A DNA stretch of 64,000 nucleotides from Promethearchaeota archaeon (lineage in GTDB: Archaea; Asgardarchaeota; Lokiarchaeia; Sigyniarchaeales; SOKP01), in assembly GCA_048941015.1 (NCBI GenBank), contig JBHLNZ010000001.1, forward strand, positions 64,001-128,000. Reading direction: 5' to 3'. Below are positions 41,415-48,495 of this stretch, one piece after another (the first letter of the stretch is position 1; each line of letters begins with the position of its first letter). Made by a program: the position numbers and the translations under genes. The notes beneath the pieces are model-generated. The model saw nothing but the letters and a program-made list of their open reading frames with translations, was not told the DNA's origin and ran no database searches.

Positions 41415-42308
41415 ATGATCTCAAAAATTTTTATCATAGGCCCCGGAGGGATTCTTTGCTATTCTAAAGACTTTTTTAGCAAAGTTGATAAAGATGATGA
41501 GATCGTTAGTGGTTATATTACAGCAGTAAGTGATTTTGCGAGAGAAATTAAAGGAGGCAAAATTGAATCCTTAATTTTTAAAAACTTTAAATTAGTGTAT
41601 TCTTATTCCATTGAATTCAACTGTATTTTTGTAATTGTCATCGATAAGGACGATTTGGAAGATATTGCGAGAAAGAATTTAGAATTGATGAAATCGGAAT
41701 TTATTAATAGATATAGACCCTATTTAGAAAAATGGACAGGACTAGTAAATATTTTTAGTGATTTTGATAACTATATTGAAGAGAATATATATATTCCACC
41801 TGAAATCTTATTAACCGGAGAAAAAGGAGTAGGGAAGACAACTATAATGAAGTTTCTCCCAGGTGAAATGATTTTAGAATTAGATGATAATTTCAATGAA
41901 ATTATACAAAAAACTGTTAAAATTAATGATCTGAAAGGAATAAAGGAATGTATAATTCGATCAATTAATCTAGACAATTTAGTGAATCATTCAGATCTCT
42001 ATAAAGAATATTTGAATTCTATAGATATTATTTGTATTATTACTAACTCAGGCGCTAGTAATCTTGGAAGAACAAAAAGATTATTCTCACTATTAGTAGA
42101 TAAAGTTCATACCTCAAATTTTTATGTTTTAGCAAACTTTCAGGATGAGGAAGATGCCGTACTAGATAAAGATCAAATTTCAGATATGTTTGGTCTAAAG
42201 ACTTATAGCTTTTCAGCCGTAGAAGCAAATGCAAAAGAATATTTTCTATTAATAATAAAAGAAATGTTAAGAGTCTCAATATCAGATAAACTTAATTTTG
42301 AATCTTAA
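41415..42308 (+). CDS. Longin-like domain fused to a degenerate small GTPase
   Basis: IFIIGPGGILCYSK...VSGYITAVSDFAREI (longin-like); GEKGVGKTT P-loop, NFQD at G4, FSA at G5. Confidence 0.8.
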   Translation: MISKIFIIGPGGILCYSKDFFSKVDKDDEIVSGYITAVSDFAREIKGGKIESLIFKNFKLVYSYSIEFNCIFVIVIDKDDLEDIARKNLELMKSEFINRYRPYLEKWTGLVNIFSDFDNYIEENIYIPPEILLTGEKGVGKTTIMKFLPGEMILELDDNFNEIIQKTVKINDLKGIKECIIRSINLDNLVNHSDLYKEYLNSIDIICIITNSGASNLGRTKRLFSLLVDKVHTSNFYVLANFQDEEDAVLDKDQISDMFGLKTYSFSAVEANAKEYFLLIIKEMLRVSISDKLNFES

Positions 42309-42313
42309 AATAA

Positions 42314-42814
42314 TTGATGTATATGAAAATAGATGAGGACTTTGTATTCCCAGTGTATATCTATGAAGATACCTTAAATGATATGAGGGATTTGTGTAAA
42401 AAGAACGAAAATGAGATTTTTGGATATCTTATAGGATTAATCTGCAGATGGAACAATAATTTTTATATAATTATCGAAGAGAAATTATTCATTGAAGGCA
42501 CATTCTATAGTCATAAATTATCTACGTCACAAATTGAGGGTACGGCAGGGAAATATGAGAGAGAGTTCCAAAAGTTAAAAAAAAATAAAAATATGAAAAA
42601 TTTACGTGTTGTGGGATGGTGGCATTCTCATCCTGATCTGGGATGTTTTCTTTCATTTACTGATCTACATACCCAAAAAGTTTTTTTTCCTGAGTCATAT
42701 CAAGTTGCTTTAGTTATAGATCCTGTGAAAGTTGATTATGAATTTTTCACTTTGGATAAAAATACAAAGAAGAAATATATTATTGTGAATCATGCAGTTA
42801 TTTCACGGACTTGA
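42314..42814 (+). CDS. JAB/MPN+ metallo-isopeptidase (Rpn11/CSN5-like)
   Basis: EIFGYLIG and VVGWWHSHPDLGCFLSFTD JAMM motif, ALVIDP. Confidence 0.95.
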   Translation: MMYMKIDEDFVFPVYIYEDTLNDMRDLCKKNENEIFGYLIGLICRWNNNFYIIIEEKLFIEGTFYSHKLSTSQIEGTAGKYEREFQKLKKNKNMKNLRVVGWWHSHPDLGCFLSFTDLHTQKVFFPESYQVALVIDPVKVDYEFFTLDKNTKKKYIIVNHAVISRT

Positions 42815-42858: not shown

Positions 42859-43770
42859 ATGTCGGATAAAGATAAGCAAGAGATCATTTTTCTTGGGTCA
42901 GAATCTTTTAATTCAGACAAATACGATCGACAAAAGCGAATTAAAGGATGGGATCAAGAAAAAATTTCAAACGCTACTGTTATGATCATTGGAGCCGGAG
43001 CGACGGGAAATGAGTTAGTAAAAAATTTAGTTTTAACTGGGGTTGGAAAAATCTACTTGATTGACTATGATATTATAGAACGTTCTAATTTAAACCGTTG
43101 TATATTATTTAGTATTAAAATGAATAATGAACCGGAATACAAAGTTGATTTAATAAAAAAAGTATGTGAAAGTTTAAATCCCGGAGTAGAAATAGTTGCG
43201 ATAAAGAAAGAGTTAAACTCAATAGACCGGAATCTCTACAAACAGTCTGATATCATATGTTCTTGTTTAGATAATATTGAAGCTCGAATTGAAGCAAATA
43301 ATTACGCATATTACTATAAAACACCATTCATAGACTCTGGGATAGATGGTTATTTTGGAACAGTTCAAGCGGTTTATTCTGAAATTAAAGAGGCTCCTTG
43401 TCTACAATGTGGGATTACAAATGTTGATTTAGATTTAATGTGGAATAAATTCTCATGTACTGGTCAGGAAATCGACCCTAAAAACGGTGAAACATCCAGA
43501 AAAATAGCTACCATCATTACAACTACAGCAATCATTGGGGGTATCCAATCTCAACAGGTCTTAAAGTTTATTTTAGGGATTGATTATTTCAAGTCTAATA
43601 AAAAGTGGGACAGTCAAATAGGCGAACCTTTGATCGGTAAACAACTAAATTATAATGGTCTTACTAATAAATTTAATATTATTAAGAAGGTAAAAGATCC
43701 TGATTGTTGGACATGTTCATATCAAAATAAAAATAAAAATAGTTCAAATTTAAATAATACAAAAACATGA
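42859..43770 (+). CDS. Ubiquitin-like activating enzyme E1 (ThiF/UBA family)
   Basis: YDRQ, IIGAGATGNE, ERSNLNR, CLDNIEAR, CLQC and CWTC Zn ligands, putative catalytic Cys in FSCTG. Confidence 0.92.
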   Translation: MSDKDKQEIIFLGSESFNSDKYDRQKRIKGWDQEKISNATVMIIGAGATGNELVKNLVLTGVGKIYLIDYDIIERSNLNRCILFSIKMNNEPEYKVDLIKKVCESLNPGVEIVAIKKELNSIDRNLYKQSDIICSCLDNIEARIEANNYAYYYKTPFIDSGIDGYFGTVQAVYSEIKEAPCLQCGITNVDLDLMWNKFSCTGQEIDPKNGETSRKIATIITTTAIIGGIQSQQVLKFILGIDYFKSNKKWDSQIGEPLIGKQLNYNGLTNKFNIIKKVKDPDCWTCSYQNKNKNSSNLNNTKT

Positions 43771-43782
43771 ATATGATTAACA

Positions 43783-44346
43783 ATGCCTGAATTGCCGTTT
43801 GAAATTTGGAAAGATCGAATAAAAAATGAGATTAAAAGCCTGAAAGATCTGAATGTTATTGAAAAAGATTCAATAAAATGGCAAGAGAATAATGTAGAGC
43901 TTATAATTCATTTAAATTCATTAGCTTTTATACGAGGCAATCCAGGAAGCTCTCAGAGTTTAACACCAATAAGATCTCATCGTATTTTATTTAAAATAAA
44001 TAGATCTTTTCCATATCCGGGAGGTATTGACTTTGCTTGGTATTCAAATATATTTCATCCGAATATTCACCCCGTTGAATTATTAAATGTTCAAACAAGA
44101 GGTACGGGATATATTTGTCTAAATGTTTTGAAACAATGGTCAAGACTGTCAGATTTAGTAACTACCGTAAAAGCATTAGAAAAGTTAGTGGAAAATCCGA
44201 ATCCAGATGATCCTCTTAATTATGATATCTGCTTAGATGCTGCCAATTTTTTTAAAACGAATAATTATGATATCTTGAAAAAAAGATATATTTGTGAAGA
44301 GAAAGAGGAAAAAGAAGATGAGGATATAATTATAATTGATGATTGA
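43783..44346 (+). CDS. Ubiquitin-conjugating enzyme E2 (UBC fold)
   Basis: FPYP, IFHPNI, GYICLNVLKQWS (catalytic Cys), NPNPDDPLN. Confidence 0.93.
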   Translation: MPELPFEIWKDRIKNEIKSLKDLNVIEKDSIKWQENNVELIIHLNSLAFIRGNPGSSQSLTPIRSHRILFKINRSFPYPGGIDFAWYSNIFHPNIHPVELLNVQTRGTGYICLNVLKQWSRLSDLVTTVKALEKLVENPNPDDPLNYDICLDAANFFKTNNYDILKKRYICEEKEEKEDEDIIIIDD

Positions 44347-44359
44347 ATTTAAAAAATGT

Positions 44360-44620
44360 TTAAAAAAATCCACCTATAACTCTAGCCCATAAAGCTAATT
44401 TGTCATCTTCTTTTAATCCAAATTTATGGACTGCATCTTTGATAGTTATTGAATTTGGTAATTCTCTTTCATTAAGAACTAGTGTGTATGAACGTTGCTC
44501 CACATTTATAATTCCCATGTGTTTTATCACGATATCAATGATTCTCTCAATTTGGTGATGTTCTTTAACATCTAATTTAATTATTTTTCCCGTTCTAGTA
44601 TCTTCTACTGAGATTTTCAT
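44360..44620 (-). CDS. Ubiquitin-like protein precursor (ends RVIGG-FF)
   Basis: 86 aa; beta-grasp-like pattern MKISVE..TGKIIKLDV...GLKEDDKLAL; di-Gly followed by two residues. Confidence 0.88.
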   Translation of the reverse strand: MKISVEDTRTGKIIKLDVKEHHQIERIIDIVIKHMGIINVEQRSYTLVLNERELPNSITIKDAVHKFGLKEDDKLALWARVIGGFF

Positions 44621-44718
44621 TAATTACAGACCTTTCTATCTTTAAATGAATTTCAAAATCTATATTGATATATTAAACTTTTTAATAATTTTAATCTATT
44701 TGTTCTTAAAATTTTTTA

Positions 44719-45675
44719 TTATCTTAATTTTTTAAGAATTAATTGATATAGTTGCTCTACAGTCTTATCAATATCATTTTTATCAAAAGTAACACCAAGT
44801 TTAGTTGAAACTAATGTAGGGATGTCTTTTTCATCTTTGAAAATAGGAATTATTGGTTTTTTAATTTTCAATGCTGATTTCCATTCTAATTGAACCTGTT
44901 CAGACTTTTTAGCTTTTTTTGAACAAAAAAGTAAGAAGGCATCACAGATATCTAGATTTCTATTCATATAGTCATAAATATCATCCTTTAAATCTTCTTC
45001 CCAATAAAAAACTTTCTTAATCTCAGAATGTTGTTGAAGTTTTTCTGCAATATTATTTATTTCAAAAAAATCCGAGTCAAGGGTGCTATAACTAACAAAT
45101 ATTAATATGTCATTACTTTTAACAGCTGGTTGCTCTTTTAATACTACTTTTTCTTCATCTATCTTAACTTTTAGACTTTCATCTAATATCTCCTTTATAA
45201 TAGGAATAATCTTTTTTTTTGAATCCTTTTGAATTGATGAAATTCCATATGTTTTTACTCCAAAAATCTCCTCAATTTTTTTAGGTTCAATAGCAGTTTT
45301 TTCTTCATCTTGAAAATTCGCGAGAATATAAATTTTCGGAACACTTACTTTTGTTTTAAGTTCTGTAAGCAGCTTTTTAGTTCTAGCAATATTACTTGCG
45401 GCTGAATTAGTTACAATTAAAAAGATGTTAACAGACTTCAATATTTCTTTATATAATCTTGATTTTTTTAGCAATTCATCTAAATCAAACTTTTTAATAT
45501 TACACTTAATTATACCATCTGAACTACTGATTTCAACAGATTTATTTATAATCTCATTTAGATCATCATCTAATTCAATTAATATCTCACCGGGCAACAG
45601 GTTTAGTATAGTGGTCTTCCCTACACCCTTCTCTCCCGTTAGTAAGACGTTAGGAAGATTTATCTCTATCACCAA
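44719..45675 (-). CDS. Degenerate small GTPase fused to a C-terminal TIR domain
   Basis: GEKGVGKTT, NFQD; TIR motifs IFVSYS, FYWEED, DAFLLFCS...SEQVQLEW, PIIPIF. Confidence 0.85.
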   Translation of the reverse strand: MVIEINLPNVLLTGEKGVGKTTILNLLPGEILIELDDDLNEIINKSVEISSSDGIIKCNIKKFDLDELLKKSRLYKEILKSVNIFLIVTNSAASNIARTKKLLTELKTKVSVPKIYILANFQDEEKTAIEPKKIEEIFGVKTYGISSIQKDSKKKIIPIIKEILDESLKVKIDEEKVVLKEQPAVKSNDILIFVSYSTLDSDFFEINNIAEKLQQHSEIKKVFYWEEDLKDDIYDYMNRNLDICDAFLLFCSKKAKKSEQVQLEWKSALKIKKPIIPIFKDEKDIPTLVSTKLGVTFDKNDIDKTVEQLYQLILKKLR

Positions 45676-45883: not shown

Positions 45884-46534
45884 ATGGGTTCAAAAGGAAT
45901 CATTTGGGTAAAAAATTATCATGGGAGGCAACGTGATTTAAAGAAAGCTTCTAAAGATGCACAAGGATTTTATGATGTCTTGATTGGTGAACGTAGTTTT
46001 GAATACGCTAATGATTTAGCATGTGATCAAGATTTACAATCGGGTGGCCAAGCTGATGATATTGCTGATATCATATTTTTCACGGGTCACGGTCGTCCTG
46101 ATGCTCTCATATTTGGAATAGATAATAAAGATAATGGAGAAGCTCATTTTAGTGATATTAAATTAGGAAGTAAAACAAAATGGGTCGTATTTAATGCATG
46201 TAATGTTTTAACTTCTGAGAGTTACTCAAATTGGAAAGGAATTTTCGAAGGCTTACATATGATCCTAGGATTTAACACATATTGTCGTATTTCAGGTGAG
46301 CGTGGTAAAAAATTTGCTGAACTTTTAAATCAAGAAAAGAAATTAATTGAAGCATGGAAGATAGCTTGTGAAGAAACTGAAAGAGAAGAAGTTGAATGGT
46401 CATGTTTATTTGCTATGTCAGAAAGAGGTAATACTGCAAATGATTATTGGAACGAAAATAGAAACCCTATTAAGGATTCTATTAAACAACAGGAAAGAGG
46501 ATATGACATTATATATTATAGTGATTCATGTTGA
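45884..46534 (+). CDS. DUF6345-like protein, putative clan CD (caspase/gingipain-fold) cysteine peptidase
   Basis: DIIFFTGHG and WVVFNACNVL His/Cys motifs, GLHMILGF. Confidence 0.65.
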   Translation: MGSKGIIWVKNYHGRQRDLKKASKDAQGFYDVLIGERSFEYANDLACDQDLQSGGQADDIADIIFFTGHGRPDALIFGIDNKDNGEAHFSDIKLGSKTKWVVFNACNVLTSESYSNWKGIFEGLHMILGFNTYCRISGERGKKFAELLNQEKKLIEAWKIACEETEREEVEWSCLFAMSERGNTANDYWNENRNPIKDSIKQQERGYDIIYYSDSC

Positions 46535-46554
46535 TTAATATAGGAGGAATATGA

Positions 46555-47415
46555 ATGAATAATCTATTTAAAGAACCTGATGGTATTCCAAATGAGATAG
46601 GCAGCGTTCCTATATATAAAACGACAAATACTTTTGATAAGCAAAAGGATTTAAATAAAAGGATTAAAAATTATGCTAGTATGTTCAATATGAAAACTAA
46701 GTTCATAGATTATGGTGAGAGGCTATTGTTAAAAAACAATAAATTTAATCTTTTTGTATATAAACAAAGTGACTCCATTTTACTATTTACTCAAGACTTT
46801 AATATCAATTATCCTAAAAAGAAAATAAATTTACCAACGAAAGAAGAAGCTAGCCAAATTGCTATAAGTTATCTTAAGGAATTGAAATTAACTAATGAAT
46901 ATGCAGAAATTACAACTGTGAAGTACACTAAAGTAGCTAGTTTAAAATCTGGGCTAGAATCTCCTAGTTTAATAGCAATAAATATAATTTTTAGTTTTAA
47001 TATAGACCATATTCCTGTTATGGGCCCAGGTGCAAAAATAAAGGTAACAATTATTCAAGATGGAAAAGTAAATGGTTTAGTATATTTTTGGAGGGATATT
47101 AGCAAGGAAGATGATACTATTGGAGTAATTAGTCCAAAAGAGGCTTTAAAAAGGTTCAAAGCAGATAAAAGCTTCAATCAACTCAATCCAGAAACAGATT
47201 CTGTAATTATTAAAAATATTCAATTTGGATATTATTCATTGAGCCCAACTGATTATCAAAGATATCTAATTCCTGTATATGCTTTAAAAGGTTTAGTAGA
47301 AACGAAGTATGCAAATTATAATTTCGTAGATTATATTGTAGCAGCCAAAATATCTCCTCTTAAAATCAAAACTTTAAGAGTCGTAGATAATCCTTTCCCC
47401 TGTTTTATAATTTGA
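46555..47415 (+). CDS. Hypothetical protein, likely co-transcribed partner of the DUF6345-like peptidase
   Basis: AGGAGG SD; 20 bp gap; IPVMGPGAKIKV..WR, ISPKEAL, FGYY, LIPVY. Confidence 0.65.
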   Translation: MNNLFKEPDGIPNEIGSVPIYKTTNTFDKQKDLNKRIKNYASMFNMKTKFIDYGERLLLKNNKFNLFVYKQSDSILLFTQDFNINYPKKKINLPTKEEASQIAISYLKELKLTNEYAEITTVKYTKVASLKSGLESPSLIAINIIFSFNIDHIPVMGPGAKIKVTIIQDGKVNGLVYFWRDISKEDDTIGVISPKEALKRFKADKSFNQLNPETDSVIIKNIQFGYYSLSPTDYQRYLIPVYALKGLVETKYANYNFVDYIVAAKISPLKIKTLRVVDNPFPCFII

Positions 47416-47427
47416 TTAGAAAATAAC

Positions 47428-48495
47428 TTAATTAATTTTTTTACCTGTAATTTTAATCTCGTCTTTTTTCATTTTATATGGTTTAGTTGGTTTTGTTTCA
47501 TCAAATGGTTCATTACACACCCAACAAGCATTCTCTAAATTTGCCAATCTGGTAGAACAATTTACACAATAAAGAGCATTACAATTTGGACAAATATAAC
47601 TCATTCTTAGCACTTTTCCTTTACATACTAAGCAAATCTTCTTTTCTCTATGGAATATAACTTCTTCCTCTGAGATTTGCATTGGTCTTTCGTAAAATCT
47701 AAACATTGAATCTTTTACTTTTACCTCTTTTACAGTACGGATTTTGATTTCGGCTTCTTCCCTTAAACCGAGATAAAAGAAACAAAAACTAGTAGCCATG
47801 CCTACTCTCCCTATAATAAGATCAAGAATTAGTGGCCATAAAACTAAACCTGGAATGATATATCGTAATAACGATAAAGTTGGAGCTGCGGGGAATAAAA
47901 AATATCCAATGGCAAGGGTAAGAAACTTTTTTTTTAATACTCCTTTTGATTTTATACTTTTAATTAAATATCCTACTCCACAAAATATTATTCCTGAAAG
48001 CTGAAATACGTATATCAGAATCATAGCTATAGAATTAGCTTTGATTCCAACAACAATTATATTTTCACCTGAAGTTAACTCAAGATTACGAACATAAAAA
48101 CTTTGTAAAGGGGTAAGAATTATAATAATTTCAAAAACTATACTTAGAATCAGGAATGAAAAGAAGAGATATTTGGTTTTATTTGGAGTCATTAGCTCAG
48201 ATCCAATATAAATTGAAATAGAAATTACAAAAGGAGTAGTTATAAAACTTAAAATACCCATTAAAATCCAATTATCAATAGTAATAAAATTTCTACTTGT
48301 AAAGAGAATTCCAATAAAATCAAAAAAAGGTACTAACCAGAGAAAACTAGCTAAAAAAATATTAAACCCCATATATAACAAGAGTTTAGCGTTTGATTTT
48401 CTTGCTTGATATACAATTCCTAAGCCGAGTATTAAGGCAAATATAAAACAGAAGGTTGCTGTTAACCCATTAATCCAACCTTCAAATGAGAGCAT
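47428..48495 (-). CDS. 7-TM membrane protein with C-terminal C4C4 RING-like zinc finger
   Basis: Seven hydrophobic segments; CLVC-x10-CPNC-x4-CVNC-x10-CWVC. Confidence 0.75.
   Translation of the reverse strand: MLSFEGWINGLTATFCFIFALILGLGIVYQARKSNAKLLLYMGFNIFLASFLWLVPFFDFIGILFTSRNFITIDNWILMGILSFITTPFVISISIYIGSELMTPNKTKYLFFSFLILSIVFEIIIILTPLQSFYVRNLELTSGENIIVVGIKANSIAMILIYVFQLSGIIFCGVGYLIKSIKSKGVLKKKFLTLAIGYFLFPAAPTLSLLRYIIPGLVLWPLILDLIIGRVGMATSFCFFYLGLREEAEIKIRTVKEVKVKDSMFRFYERPMQISEEEVIFHREKKICLVCKGKVLRMSYICPNCNALYCVNCSTRLANLENACWVCNEPFDETKPTKPYKMKKDEIKITGKKIN

What the first reader, a model, noticed from the sequence alone, without database searches (positions are those of the whole stretch)
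44719..45675. GTPase-TIR fusion keeps the catalytic-position glutamate and lies upstream of the Ubl gene
The TIR domain has box-1 FVSYS and SEQVQLEW, matching the S.wv..E helix whose Glu is catalytic in NAD+-cleaving TIRs such as SARM1, ThsB and plant TIRs. The gene is on the same strand and 98 bp upstream of the Ubl gene. Inference: an oligomerisation-activated NADase or signal generator, possibly gated by the P-loop domain or by Ubl attachment.
Basis: partly seen in the sequence, partly recalled or inferred. Interest (0 to 1): 0.7.

Follow-up and report, generated by a model that had tools for sequence, protein, structure and literature searches.

The report
Switch-dead GTPase-TIR in Asgard ubiquitin-like cassette
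An Asgard (Loki-type) archaeon encodes a protein that joins a degenerate Arf-like GTPase domain to a TIR domain with the residue needed for NAD+ cleavage. The gene always sits beside a small ubiquitin-like tagging cassette, which suggests an enzymatic output for that poorly understood system.

Summary
ORF 44719-45675(-) is an intact 318-aa fusion of a P-loop G domain and a TIR_2 domain. It lies 98 bp upstream of the Ubl gene on the same strand.

- **Catalytic Glu.** The Glu of SEQVQLEW (E264) is invariant in 28 orthologues and 40 wider TIR relatives. It aligns with the catalytic Glu of SARM1/TIR-1 and Cat1.
- **Functional link to the cassette.** All 13 related loci with enough flank place the fusion beside the Ubl of a JAB-E1-E2-Ubl cassette.
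- **Correction 1: strand.** In 12 of the 13 loci the TIR and Ubl genes are divergent, so the same-strand layout is specific to this genus.
- **Correction 2: the "GTPase".** The domain is Arf-like but has lost the switch-I Thr, the DxxG Gly and the catalytic Gln. It probably binds nucleotide or acts as a scaffold, not as a hydrolysing switch.
- **Correction 3: TIR is one of several outputs.** This G-domain family was present in every cassette variant inspected. The cassette is an accessory found in one archaeal family. C-terminal modules alternate between TIR, a nitrilase-type hydrolase and a helical module.

Best reading (confidence about 0.5): the G domain docks the protein to the cassette and clusters the TIR domains, which then cleave NAD+. 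Enzyme activity and biological role (defence or physiology) are untested.

Earlier scan reports on other genomes had already found the longin-pseudoGTPase/Ubl cassette. The one look-up by sequence returned no note of a TIR fusion on other DNA.

The parts
44719..45675 (-). Whole G-domain-TIR gene (318 aa, TTG/GTG start)
   Evidence: ORF. A 100% identical protein, P0001, and about 44 orthologue clusters.
45223..45654 (-). Arf-like G domain (residues about 8-151), switch-dead
   Evidence: PDB profile hits to Arl3/Arl1/Arf at E 3e-4 to 1e-2. Foldseek best matches are FeoB, Arf1, Arl1 and Rab. More distant relatives P0101, P0106 and P0122 hit Pfam Arf/Ras/Roc.
45610..45636 (-). G1 / P-loop GEKGVGKTT (retained)
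45553..45570 (-). DDDLNE, which replaces the switch-I PTxG of canonical relatives (no Thr)
   Evidence: MAFFT alignment with canonical relatives P0098, P0104 and P0106.
45472..45489 (-). FDLDEL, which replaces the G3 DxxGQ (Asp kept; Gly to Glu, Gln to Leu)
   Evidence: HMMER alignment to Arl3. MAFFT alignment.
45307..45318 (-). G4 variant NFQD (NKxD with Lys to Phe)
45115..45222 (-). Linker: a long helix, then a disordered stretch (residues about 152-187). It is about 20 aa longer than in the 296-aa orthologues.
   Evidence: AF2 model: helix 151-176, pLDDT below 50 at 170-186. Alignment gap.
44722..45114 (-). TIR domain (residues 188-318)
   Evidence: Pfam TIR_2 at 3.2e-15. AF2 pLDDT 90.5. 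Foldseek hits to TRR-2, AbTir+3AD (TMq 0.76), MyD88, SARM1 and SPARTA TIR.
45085..45099 (-). Box-1 strand FVSYS
   Evidence: It aligns with FISY of C. elegans TIR-1.
44884..44886 (-). Codon of E264, the catalytic-position glutamate
   Evidence: Invariant in alignments A1 (28 sequences) and A2 (40 sequences, down to 31% identity). It aligns with the Glu of WVHKE in TIR-1/SARM1 and of SDWCWDE in Cat1.
44621..44718 (-). 98-bp spacer between the TIR stop and the Ubl start. It has a T-run after the stop and a TATA-like AT-rich element about 50 nt before the Ubl ATG.
   Evidence: Sequence. Alignment with the same-genus locus L032. This is weak evidence because the genome is 29% GC.
44360..44620 (-). 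Ubl (86 aa, ends GG-FF)
   Evidence: 65-98% identical in the related loci, including the second paralogue; alignment of nine copies (68-99%). Ubiquitin is the best PDB sequence match, though weak for a single domain.
43783..44346 (+). E2 (UQ_con)
   Evidence: Pfam hit. Orthologue found in 33 of 301 Asgard genomes, all in one family.
42859..43770 (+). E1 (ThiF family)
   Evidence: Pfam hit at 3.4e-49. NCBIfam hits.
42314..42814 (+). JAB/MPN peptidase
   Evidence: Pfam JAB at 1e-10. PADLOC JAB.
41415..42308 (+). Longin + G-domain paralogue (297 aa). Its G domain is 49% identical to that of the TIR protein.
   Evidence: (P0058). The longin fold comes from Atlas structure matches with TM 0.86-0.87.
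47428..48495 (-). Multi-pass membrane protein with a C-terminal Cys-rich zinc finger (RING-like candidate). It recurs with the cassette.
   Evidence: Homologues lie next to the cassette in L031, L038, L040, L041, L043, L045, L099-L102, L104, L116-L118 and L120. The RING fold was not tested.

Best explanation
The gene encodes a two-module protein.

**N-terminal module.** It is an Arf-like G domain that keeps the nucleotide-binding motifs: the P-loop, the Asn and Asp of G4, and the G5 SA motif. It has lost both gamma-phosphate sensors and the catalytic Gln. It is best seen as a nucleotide-bound scaffold (a pseudo-GTPase), not as a hydrolysing switch.

**C-terminal module.** It is a canonical TIR domain with an invariant catalytic-position Glu, tethered by a flexible linker.

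**Family context.** The protein is a rare member of a G-domain family present in every variant inspected of an accessory Ubl-E1-E2-JAB cassette. That cassette also carries membrane zinc-finger proteins and is found in one family of Loki-type Asgard archaea. Other members carry a longin domain at the N-terminus. At the C-terminus they carry either a helical module or a nitrilase-type hydrolase.

**Most likely mechanism.** The G domain docks the protein to the cassette. Docking could be through the longin-G paralogue, the Ubl, or Ubl-modified partners. This brings TIR domains close enough to self-associate and cleave NAD+. The TIR is therefore the enzymatic output of the Ubl cassette.

**Shown:** domain identities, motif states, conservation of the Glu, the conserved neighbourhood, the patchy distribution and the alternative C-terminal modules.

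**Inferred:** NAD+ cleavage, activation by clustering, the docking role of the G domain, and the biological role. I lean towards a conflict or stress response because the distribution is patchy and the effector-type domains are swapped, but this is unproven.
For: **TIR domain**
- TIR_2 at E 3.2e-15.
- TIR-only model at pLDDT 90.5. It matches the AbTir/3AD active-state structure (TMq 0.76, rmsd 2.7) as well as SARM1 and SPARTA TIRs.
- E264 is invariant in 28 orthologues and in 40 TIR relatives down to 31% identity.
- E264 aligns with the catalytic Glu of TIR-1/SARM1 and Cat1. The non-enzymatic Hydra TRR-2 TIR has no Glu at that position.
- All enzymatic TIRs examined need this Glu and also TIR self-association, and an archaeal TIR (TcpO) is an active NADase (PMC10022894).
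- The TIR is more conserved than the G domain: 53 of 128 invariant columns against 32 of 141.

**Link to the cassette**
- The fusion neighbours the Ubl of a JAB-E1-E2-Ubl cassette in all 13 related loci with enough flank, at 49-58% identity or, for L032, 94%.
- Cassette variants without TIR each carry one or more G-domain paralogues.
- C-terminal modules alternate between TIR, CN_hydrolase and a helical module.
- The helical module is 41-47% identical to a segment just upstream of the TIR in TPR-TIR proteins of about 1120 aa.
- On a quick ML tree the G-TIR proteins form one group that is sister to the longin-less G-helical proteins.

**Accessory nature**
- The cassette E2 orthologue is in 33 of 301 Asgard genomes, all in one family. 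Within the window's own genus it is in 10 of 27 genomes and was not found in several genomes of about 100% completeness.

**Switch loss**
-.
Against: - No enzymatic, binding or expression data exist, and no RNA runs were available.
- The Trp four residues before the catalytic Glu is present in SARM1/TIR-1, Cat1 and the 9m0n TIR. In this family it is Pro, Gln or Ala, so the chemistry may differ or be weak.
- BB-loop residues differ from those of SARM1.
- PADLOC and NCBIfam do not recognise the protein or the cassette as a known defence system.
- The flanking genes look like ordinary chromosomal genes, with no mobile-element or defence-island signature.
- Ubl and E1 are very conserved (65-98% and about 70%), which is more typical of a housekeeping pathway than of an arms-race system.
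- Some loci have lost the adjacent longin-G partner, so that partner cannot be strictly required.
- The G domain might not bind nucleotide at all.
Confidence: 0.5

Rival explanations
1. Signal generator. The TIR makes a cyclic-ADPR-type or other ADPR-derived messenger that activates a receptor or effector encoded elsewhere, as in Thoeris. It would not act by depleting NAD+ itself.
For: The catalytic Glu is conserved. Many prokaryotic TIRs, including an archaeal one, make cADPR isomers (PMC10022894). The absence of the Trp at position -4 could mean a different product (the interpretation comes from memory of AbTir work).
Against: The conserved cassette contains no gene with a recognised domain that senses such nucleotides. 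It holds only JAB, E1, E2, Ubl, G-domain proteins and membrane zinc-finger proteins. PADLOC finds no Thoeris components. The Pfam ThsB_TIR score of 21.1 is just under its cut-off of 21.2.
Confidence: 0.15
2. Non-enzymatic adaptor. The TIR serves for TIR-TIR contacts with the genome's other TIR proteins, which carry WD40, TPR or beta-propeller domains. It would link those sensors to the Ubl/RING-like machinery, by analogy with MyD88 and TRAF6 signalling in animals.
For: The genome has 12 TIR_2 ORFs. Repeat-sensor architectures include TPR-TIR (1131 aa), WD40-TIR (1221 and 547 aa) and LVIVD-propeller-TIR (1067 aa). In the sister genome a TPR-helical-TIR protein lies next to the cassette (L032). 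That protein shares its helical module with the G-helical cassette proteins. MyD88 and MAL are among the best structural matches.
Against: The catalytic-position Glu is invariant across the whole paralogue family. The one non-enzymatic TIR whose alignment was shown, Hydra TRR-2, has no Glu there. The alternation with another enzyme domain, CN_hydrolase, at the same position fits an enzymatic output better.
Confidence: 0.15
3. Canonical GTP switch. The N-terminal domain is a working GTPase whose GTP/GDP cycle, with the paralogue as partner or GAP, turns the TIR on and off.
For: The P-loop, the Asn and Asp of G4 and the G5 motif are conserved. The fold is that of a small GTPase. Longin and roadblock domains are known platforms or GAPs for small GTPases, and Asgard archaea have many longin-GTPase fusions (10.1101/2020.10.19.343400; PMC10933270).
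Against: The switch-I Thr, the DxxG Gly and the catalytic Gln are present in the nearest canonical relatives but are replaced in the whole cassette family by conserved DDDLNE and D-x-x-E-L motifs. These are the residues that sense the gamma-phosphate and catalyse hydrolysis in Ras-superfamily proteins (established knowledge).
Confidence: 0.08
4. Chance neighbour. The TIR fusion has no functional link to the Ubl cassette.
For: These genomes hold many TIR genes in varied contexts.
Against: The fusion is adjacent to the Ubl in all 13 informative loci despite 42-51% sequence divergence and a local rearrangement. Its G domain belongs to the family that accompanies the cassette in every variant inspected.
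Confidence: 0.03

Closest known systems
Enzymatic TIR domains (SARM1/TIR-1, AbTir, ThsB, SPARTA TIR-APAZ, Cat1, archaeal TcpO)
   Same: TIR fold. F-x-S-Y box 1. Invariant Glu at the catalytic position on the alpha-C helix. The domain is fused to a separate regulatory or oligomerising module, as in all of these proteins.
   Different: The partner module is a switch-dead Arf-like G domain, not SAM/ARM, APAZ/Ago, STAND, CARF or a standalone domain. The Trp at position -4 is absent. The genomic partner is a Ubl conjugation cassette. Activity is untested.
Asgard longin-Arf/Rag-like GTPase fusions (Liu et al., 10.1101/2020.10.19.343400; PMC10933270)
   Same: Same G-domain lineage. The adjacent paralogue is a longin-G fusion.
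   Different: This member has no longin domain and carries a TIR. The family here has lost its switch motifs and is tied to a Ubl cassette. I did not find either point in those papers: 'TIR' has 0 occurrences in both.
Eukaryote-like archaeal ubiquitin operons (Caldiarchaeum and Asgard: Ub, E1, E2, RING E3, Rpn11-like JAB)
   Same: Separate Ubl, ThiF-type E1, UBC-type E2 (Pfam UQ_con) and a JAB/MPN peptidase. A Cys-rich zinc-finger protein lies nearby.
   Different: - The Ubl is only weakly ubiquitin-like.
- The zinc-finger protein is a multi-pass membrane protein.
- G-domain proteins accompany the cassette in every variant inspected.
- The cassette is patchy within a single archaeal family.
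- Effector-type domains (TIR, nitrilase) are attached.
Bacterial Ubl-based antiviral operons (Bil, Bub, type II CBASS Cap2/Cap3) and NTPase-centred conflict systems with TIR effectors (Kaur et al. 2020, PMC7159879)
   Same: A small accessory operon with E1, E2, JAB and Ubl functions. Patchy distribution. TIR as an alternative effector module attached to an NTPase-type core.
   Different: - There is no PADLOC system hit.
- The E2 is of the eukaryotic UBC type.
- E1 and E2 are separate genes, not a Cap2-like fusion.
- The NTPase is a small Arf-like pseudo-GTPase, not a STAND, MoxR or AP-GTPase.
- The host is archaeal.
- No defence phenotype is known.

Membership tests
TIR domain (Pfam TIR_2, STIR superfamily) | Sequence match above the curated threshold | tested here: met
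   PF13676 at 57.1 bits against a cut-off of 28, E 3.2e-15, residues 192-309.
TIR domain (Pfam TIR_2, STIR superfamily) | Flavodoxin-like TIR fold | tested here: met
   AF2 model at pLDDT 90.5. Foldseek probability 1.00 to TRR-2, AbTir, MyD88, MAL, SARM1 and SPARTA TIRs, with TMq 0.65-0.77.
Enzymatic (NAD+-cleaving) TIR | Conserved catalytic glutamate on the alpha-C helix | tested here: met
   E264 is invariant. It aligns with the catalytic Glu of TIR-1/SARM1 and Cat1.
Enzymatic (NAD+-cleaving) TIR | BB-loop over the pocket, and TIR self-association needed for catalysis | not testable with these tools
   A conserved loop, YWEE-LKDD, occupies the BB-loop position. Its role and any self-association need experiments or multimer modelling.
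Enzymatic (NAD+-cleaving) TIR | Measured NAD+ hydrolysis or cyclisation | not testable with these tools
Thoeris (ThsB + ThsA) | ThsB-type TIR together with a ThsA (SIR2/Macro-SLOG) partner gene | tested here: not met
   Pfam ThsB_TIR scores 21.1 bits, under its cut-off of 21.2. PADLOC finds no Thoeris hit for any cassette protein.
Ras-superfamily small GTPase (Arf-like branch) | G-domain fold with the G1 P-loop | tested here: met
   Foldseek hits to Arf1, Arl1, Rab and FeoB. PDB profile hit to Arl3 at E 3e-4. GEKGVGKTT is conserved.
Ras-superfamily small GTPase (Arf-like branch) | Switch-I Thr (G2) and switch-II DxxG (G3) with the catalytic Gln | tested here: not met
   These are replaced by DDDLNE and D-L-D-E-L. 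Relatives P0098, P0104 and P0106 keep PTxG and DxxGQ.
Ras-superfamily small GTPase (Arf-like branch) | G4 NKxD and G5 SAx guanine-specificity motifs | tested here: inconclusive
   NFQD keeps Asn and Asp but has Lys replaced by Phe. SS/SA follows the beta-6 strand. Nucleotide binding was not measured.
Ubl-E1-E2-JAB cassette with G-domain proteins (found earlier by this scan in other genomes) | Adjacent to JAB, ThiF-type E1, UBC-type E2 and a GG-ended Ubl, with a G domain of the same family | tested here: met
Bacterial Ubl defence operons (Bil, Bub, CBASS type II) | Recognised by system-specific models, or a demonstrated anti-virus phenotype | tested here: not met
   PADLOC gives only generic E1-E2 and JAB domain hits, with none for the E2, the Ubl or the G-TIR protein. 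A phenotype cannot be tested here.

The most novel reading that the evidence does not exclude
The Ubl-E1-E2-JAB cassette with membrane RING-like proteins may be an archaeal immune or programmed-dormancy system built from eukaryote-type parts. In this reading, switch-dead Arf-like G domains are the hubs that read or receive the Ubl tag. Interchangeable TIR or nitrilase modules are the death or arrest effectors. That would make it an Asgard counterpart of the bacterial Bil and CBASS-II Ubl defences, and a possible antecedent of the TIR-ubiquitin cross-talk seen in eukaryotic innate immunity.
Probability: 0.25. Interest if true: 0.85.

Novelty: new variant of a known kind. Interest (0 to 1): 0.6.

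Why it matters
[quoted passage not shown] This cassette already linked those two modules. The TIR fusion, and the nitrilase fusions found alongside it, add a predicted enzymatic output. That gives a concrete assay for a system whose function is otherwise opaque: NAD+ cleavage dependent on E264, with and without the Ubl cascade and the G-domain partner.

If the output proves to be a regulated NADase, it would show a ubiquitin-like pathway controlling a TIR enzyme in archaea. That bears on how TIR, ubiquitin and GTPase signalling came together in eukaryotic immunity. If the TIR is inactive, the protein is still a useful handle for finding what the switch-dead G domains bind.

Tried and rejected
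- I used the search for related loci, the genome search and the fetch from genomes instead.
- **Expression.** No RNA holder was listed, so read laying was not used and co-transcription could not be tested.
- **Known defence families.** PADLOC and NCBIfam gave no family for the G-TIR protein.
- **Viruses.** Viral contigs held no relative of the G-TIR protein or the Ubl.
- **Whole-protein fold search.** Small GTPases dominated the result, so I modelled and searched the TIR domain alone.
- **Literature.** Searches of the held library found no description of this fusion or of its link to the cassette. Two searches failed because a term was too short. One paper look-up returned nothing.
- **Longer proteins.** The search of longer proteins found none that Pfam gives both modules. 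It found only TPR-TIR proteins and longin-G-helical-nitrilase proteins.
- **Tree.** The careful ML tree did not finish in time, so the quick tree was used. The SH-aLRT support for the G-TIR group is 86, which is moderate.
- **Rejected: Thoeris membership.** See the membership test.
- **Rejected: a canonical GTPase switch.** The switch motifs are lost.
- **Rejected: the DUF6345 gene and the 286-aa gene as cassette parts.** They lie divergent from the TIR gene in the window but have no homologue in any of the 14 related loci.
- **Rejected: a conserved TIR-Ubl operon.** The two genes are divergent in 12 of the 13 related loci.
Full report
**1. What is in the sequence**

The window has about 29% GC. 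Its proteins match Asgard (Loki/Promethearchaeia-type) MAGs.

ORF 44719-45675(-) is uninterrupted and 318 aa long, with a TTG start followed by GTG. An identical 317-aa protein is in the protein collection (P0001).

Pfam finds TIR_2 at residues 192-309 (E 3.2e-15, 57 bits against a cut-off of 28). The N-terminus gives only weak P-loop matches.

- GEKGVGKTT at residues 14-22
- FVSYS at residues 193-197
- SEQVQLEW at residues 258-265, with the E264 codon GAA at 44884-44886

The Ubl ORF is 44360-44620(-). The spacer is therefore 98 bp and both genes are on the minus strand.

**2. The TIR domain**

An AF2 model of residues 186-318, built on 40 diverse relatives, reaches pLDDT 90.5. Its best PDB neighbours are all TIR domains:
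- Hydra TRR-2
- AbTir bound to 3AD (TMq 0.76, rmsd 2.7)
- MyD88 and MAL
- SARM1
- SPARTA TIR-APAZ

In 28 orthologues both Glu residues of S-E-x-V-Q-x-E-W are invariant. In 40 TIR relatives down to 31% identity, only the second Glu (E264) and the preceding Ser stay invariant. The most distant sequences in that set show the classical S-x-W-C-x-x-E-L form.

A profile of that alignment places E264 on the Glu of W-V-H-K-E in C. elegans TIR-1, the SARM1 orthologue. It also places it on the Glu of S-D-W-C-W-D-E in Cat1. The non-enzymatic Hydra TIR has no Glu at that position.

According to PMC10022894:
- All enzymatic TIRs examined require this Glu and TIR self-association.
- A BB-loop covers the pocket.
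- An archaeal TIR (TcpO) is active.

Two caveats apply. The Trp four residues before the Glu in SARM1/TIR-1, Cat1 and 9m0n is Pro, Gln or Ala in this family. The BB-loop sequence also differs from SARM1.

The TIR half is more conserved than the G half: 53 of 128 invariant columns against 32 of 141.

**3. The "GTPase"**

A profile of the orthologues hits Arl3, Arl1, Arf and Sar1 structures weakly, with E from 3e-4 upward. The whole-protein model matches FeoB, Arf1, Arl1 and Rab folds.

An exhaustive HMMER search of 1.84 billion representatives with residues 1-175 found only 148 clusters at E ≤ 1e-3. Most of them have the G domain after an N-terminal domain of about 125 aa. In the window's paralogue that N-terminal domain has a longin fold. 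The more distant relatives are clear Arf/Ras/Roc proteins by Pfam.

Alignment with those canonical relatives shows what has changed in the cassette family:

| Motif | Canonical relatives | Cassette family |
|---|---|---|
| G1 (P-loop) | retained | retained |
| Switch I | P-T-x-G | D-D-D-L-N-E |
| G3 | D-x-x-G-Q | D-L-x-E-L |
| G4 | N-K-Q-D | N-F-Q-D |
| G5 | S-A | retained |

The two gamma-phosphate sensors and the catalytic Gln are gone, and the replacement motifs are themselves conserved. The domain is best called a switch-dead, possibly nucleotide-binding, Arf-like G domain.

**4. Neighbourhood**

I compared the window's proteins by tblastn with 14 loci that encode full-length orthologues. 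These were two from species genomes and 12 metagenome contigs.

- Every locus with enough flank (13) has JAB > E1 > E2 > < Ubl directly beside the G-TIR gene.
- In the 12 loci of the 296-313-aa type, the TIR gene is divergent from the Ubl. About 175 bp separate the two start codons. A longin-G gene usually follows, convergent with the TIR gene.
- Only the window and L032 have TIR > Ubl on one strand. L032 is from the same genus and its TIR is 94% identical.
- A membrane zinc-finger protein lies upstream of JAB in six of the loci.
- The DUF6345 gene and the 286-aa gene next to the TIR in the window have no counterpart in any related locus.
- In four loci the longin-G partner has been deleted.

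Adjacency to the Ubl cassette is therefore conserved, but the same-strand layout is not.

The window's spacer has a T-run after the TIR stop. It also has a TATA-like element about 50 nt before the Ubl ATG, in roughly the same place as in L032. This is weak evidence in such an AT-rich genome.

**5. The cassette without TIR**

The E2 orthologue occurs in 33 of 301 sampled Asgard genomes, all in one family:
- 32 of 68 genomes in that family other than G000
- 10 of 27 in the window's genus
- 18 of 22 in a second genus

It is almost always single-copy. It was not found in several genomes of about 100% completeness in the same genus.

A full-length G-TIR match was seen in only two of the 301 genomes. 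One further species genome turned up in the genome collection.

The following cassette variants were read:
- one to three longin-G genes > JAB > E1 > E2 > < Ubl
- membrane zinc finger > G-helical (about 340 aa) > JAB > E1 > E2 > < Ubl
- a mini-module without local E1/E2/JAB: membrane zinc finger > G-helical (about 408 aa) > < second Ubl paralogue
- an adjacent 871-aa longin-G-helical-CN_hydrolase protein

Pfam confirms the CN_hydrolase domain in G-CN_hydrolase proteins of 505 aa and 874 aa. NCBI names the relatives of about 870 aa as nitrilase-related.

The helical module is 41-47% identical to residues about 703-919 of TPR-TIR proteins of about 1120 aa. One of these lies next to the cassette in L032 and another is in this genome.

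A quick ML tree of 95 G domains puts all 38 G-TIR proteins in one group (SH-aLRT 86). That group is sister (94) to the longin-less G-helical proteins, and both are nested among the longin-G proteins. One origin of the TIR fusion is therefore compatible with the data. It may have arisen by recombination through the shared helical module.

**6. Genome context of TIR**

The genome has 12 TIR_2 ORFs. Pfam scans of ten of them show:
- TPR-TIR (1131 aa)
- WD40-TIR (1221 aa and 547 aa)
- LVIVD-propeller-TIR (1067 aa)
- several of 410-550 aa with unassigned N-termini

Four of them lie within 13 kb on contig C114. TIR is thus a widely used output or adaptor module in this organism.

**7. Interpretation**

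*Shown:*
- a genuine TIR with the catalytic Glu
- a switch-dead Arf-like G domain
- strict linkage to an accessory Ubl cassette that carries one or more G domains of this family in every variant inspected
- alternation of TIR with a nitrilase-type hydrolase or a helical module

*Inferred:*
- The G domain is the cassette-docking part.
- The TIR is the output and is activated by proximity, as in other enzymatic TIRs.

The patchy distribution and the swapping of effector-type domains resemble the prokaryotic conflict systems described in PMC7159879. Against this, the Ubl and E1 are highly conserved, no known defence model matches, and the flanking genes are ordinary. These points leave a physiological regulatory role open.

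I put 0.5 on "cassette-controlled NAD+-cleaving effector". The signal-generator and pure-adaptor variants each get 0.15. A true GTP switch gets 0.08 and a chance neighbour 0.03.

**8. Prior knowledge**

Longin-GTPase fusions of Asgard archaea are described in 10.1101/2020.10.19.343400 and PMC10933270. Neither paper mentions TIR. The survey of Asgard defence systems (PMC11291487) mentions neither ubiquitin nor GTPases and cites TIR only within the names of listed defence systems.

Earlier reports of this scan on other genomes had already described the longin-pseudoGTPase/Ubl/membrane-RING cassette. My independent analysis agrees with them. The sequence look-up returned no note of the TIR-bearing member on other DNA.

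I did not find this fusion or its context described in the held library. That library is incomplete, so this is not proof of novelty.

**9. Limits**

- No RNA data were available.
- Multimer modelling and residue-level structural superposition were not available.
- Several metagenome loci come from the same sampling campaigns and are not independent of one another.

Noticed in passing
L099:8721-11336 (G008), also P0083, P0081 and P0228-P0242: Proteins of about 870 aa with longin, G domain, helical module and CN_hydrolase (nitrilase-type), and 505-aa G-CN_hydrolase proteins, lie next to the same Ubl cassette. They are a second enzymatic output of the G-domain family.
   Followed up: partly
L104:7840-10812; L118:6594-8908; L119:2368-3842: A mini-module of membrane zinc-finger protein > G-helical protein (about 408 aa) > < second Ubl paralogue (65-68% identical to the window's Ubl), with no E1, E2 or JAB nearby.
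   Followed up: partly
G000 contig C114:3100-16414 (L107, L108, L114, L115): Four TIR_2 proteins lie within 13 kb: WD40-TIR (1221 aa and 547 aa), LVIVD-propeller-TIR (1067 aa), and a 548-aa protein with an unassigned N-terminus. The genome has 12 TIR ORFs in all.
   Followed up: partly
L035:3845-3950 (also clusters P0039-P0042): In some 296-aa-type G-TIR genes the conserved P-loop is encoded in frame upstream of the first ATG. No ATG, GTG or TTG lies between the preceding stop and that ATG. Either an unusual start codon is used, or the protein lacks its P-loop.
   Followed up: partly
window 44360-44365; L031:7550-7555; L099:16090-16095: The Ubl ends GG-FF, GG-LF or GG-YY in some genomes and exactly at GG in others. 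The need for C-terminal processing therefore varies between close relatives.
   Followed up: partly
L031:3078-3617; L038:1358-1891; L043:305-841; L099:8050-8619; L100-L103: A canonical Rab-like small GTPase of about 180 aa, with DIAGQ and NKVD intact, recurs within a few kb of the cassette in 8 of the loci. It was not found in the window at E below 1e-20.
   Followed up: partly
window 45884-47415: The DUF6345 protein (Pfam E 3e-41) and the 286-aa protein that are divergent from the TIR gene have no homologue in any of the 14 related cassette loci. They are probably not part of the system.
   Followed up: partly
L032:4440-7802; G000 C43:31507-34899 (L105): TPR-helical-TIR proteins of about 1120-1131 aa share the helical module of the G-helical cassette proteins (41-47% identity). 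In L032 one of them lies directly beside the cassette.
   Followed up: partly
window 47428-48495: The membrane zinc-finger protein gives a weak PADLOC hit to the candidate defence family PDC-M01B (E 2e-4, residues 260-332).
   Followed up: no
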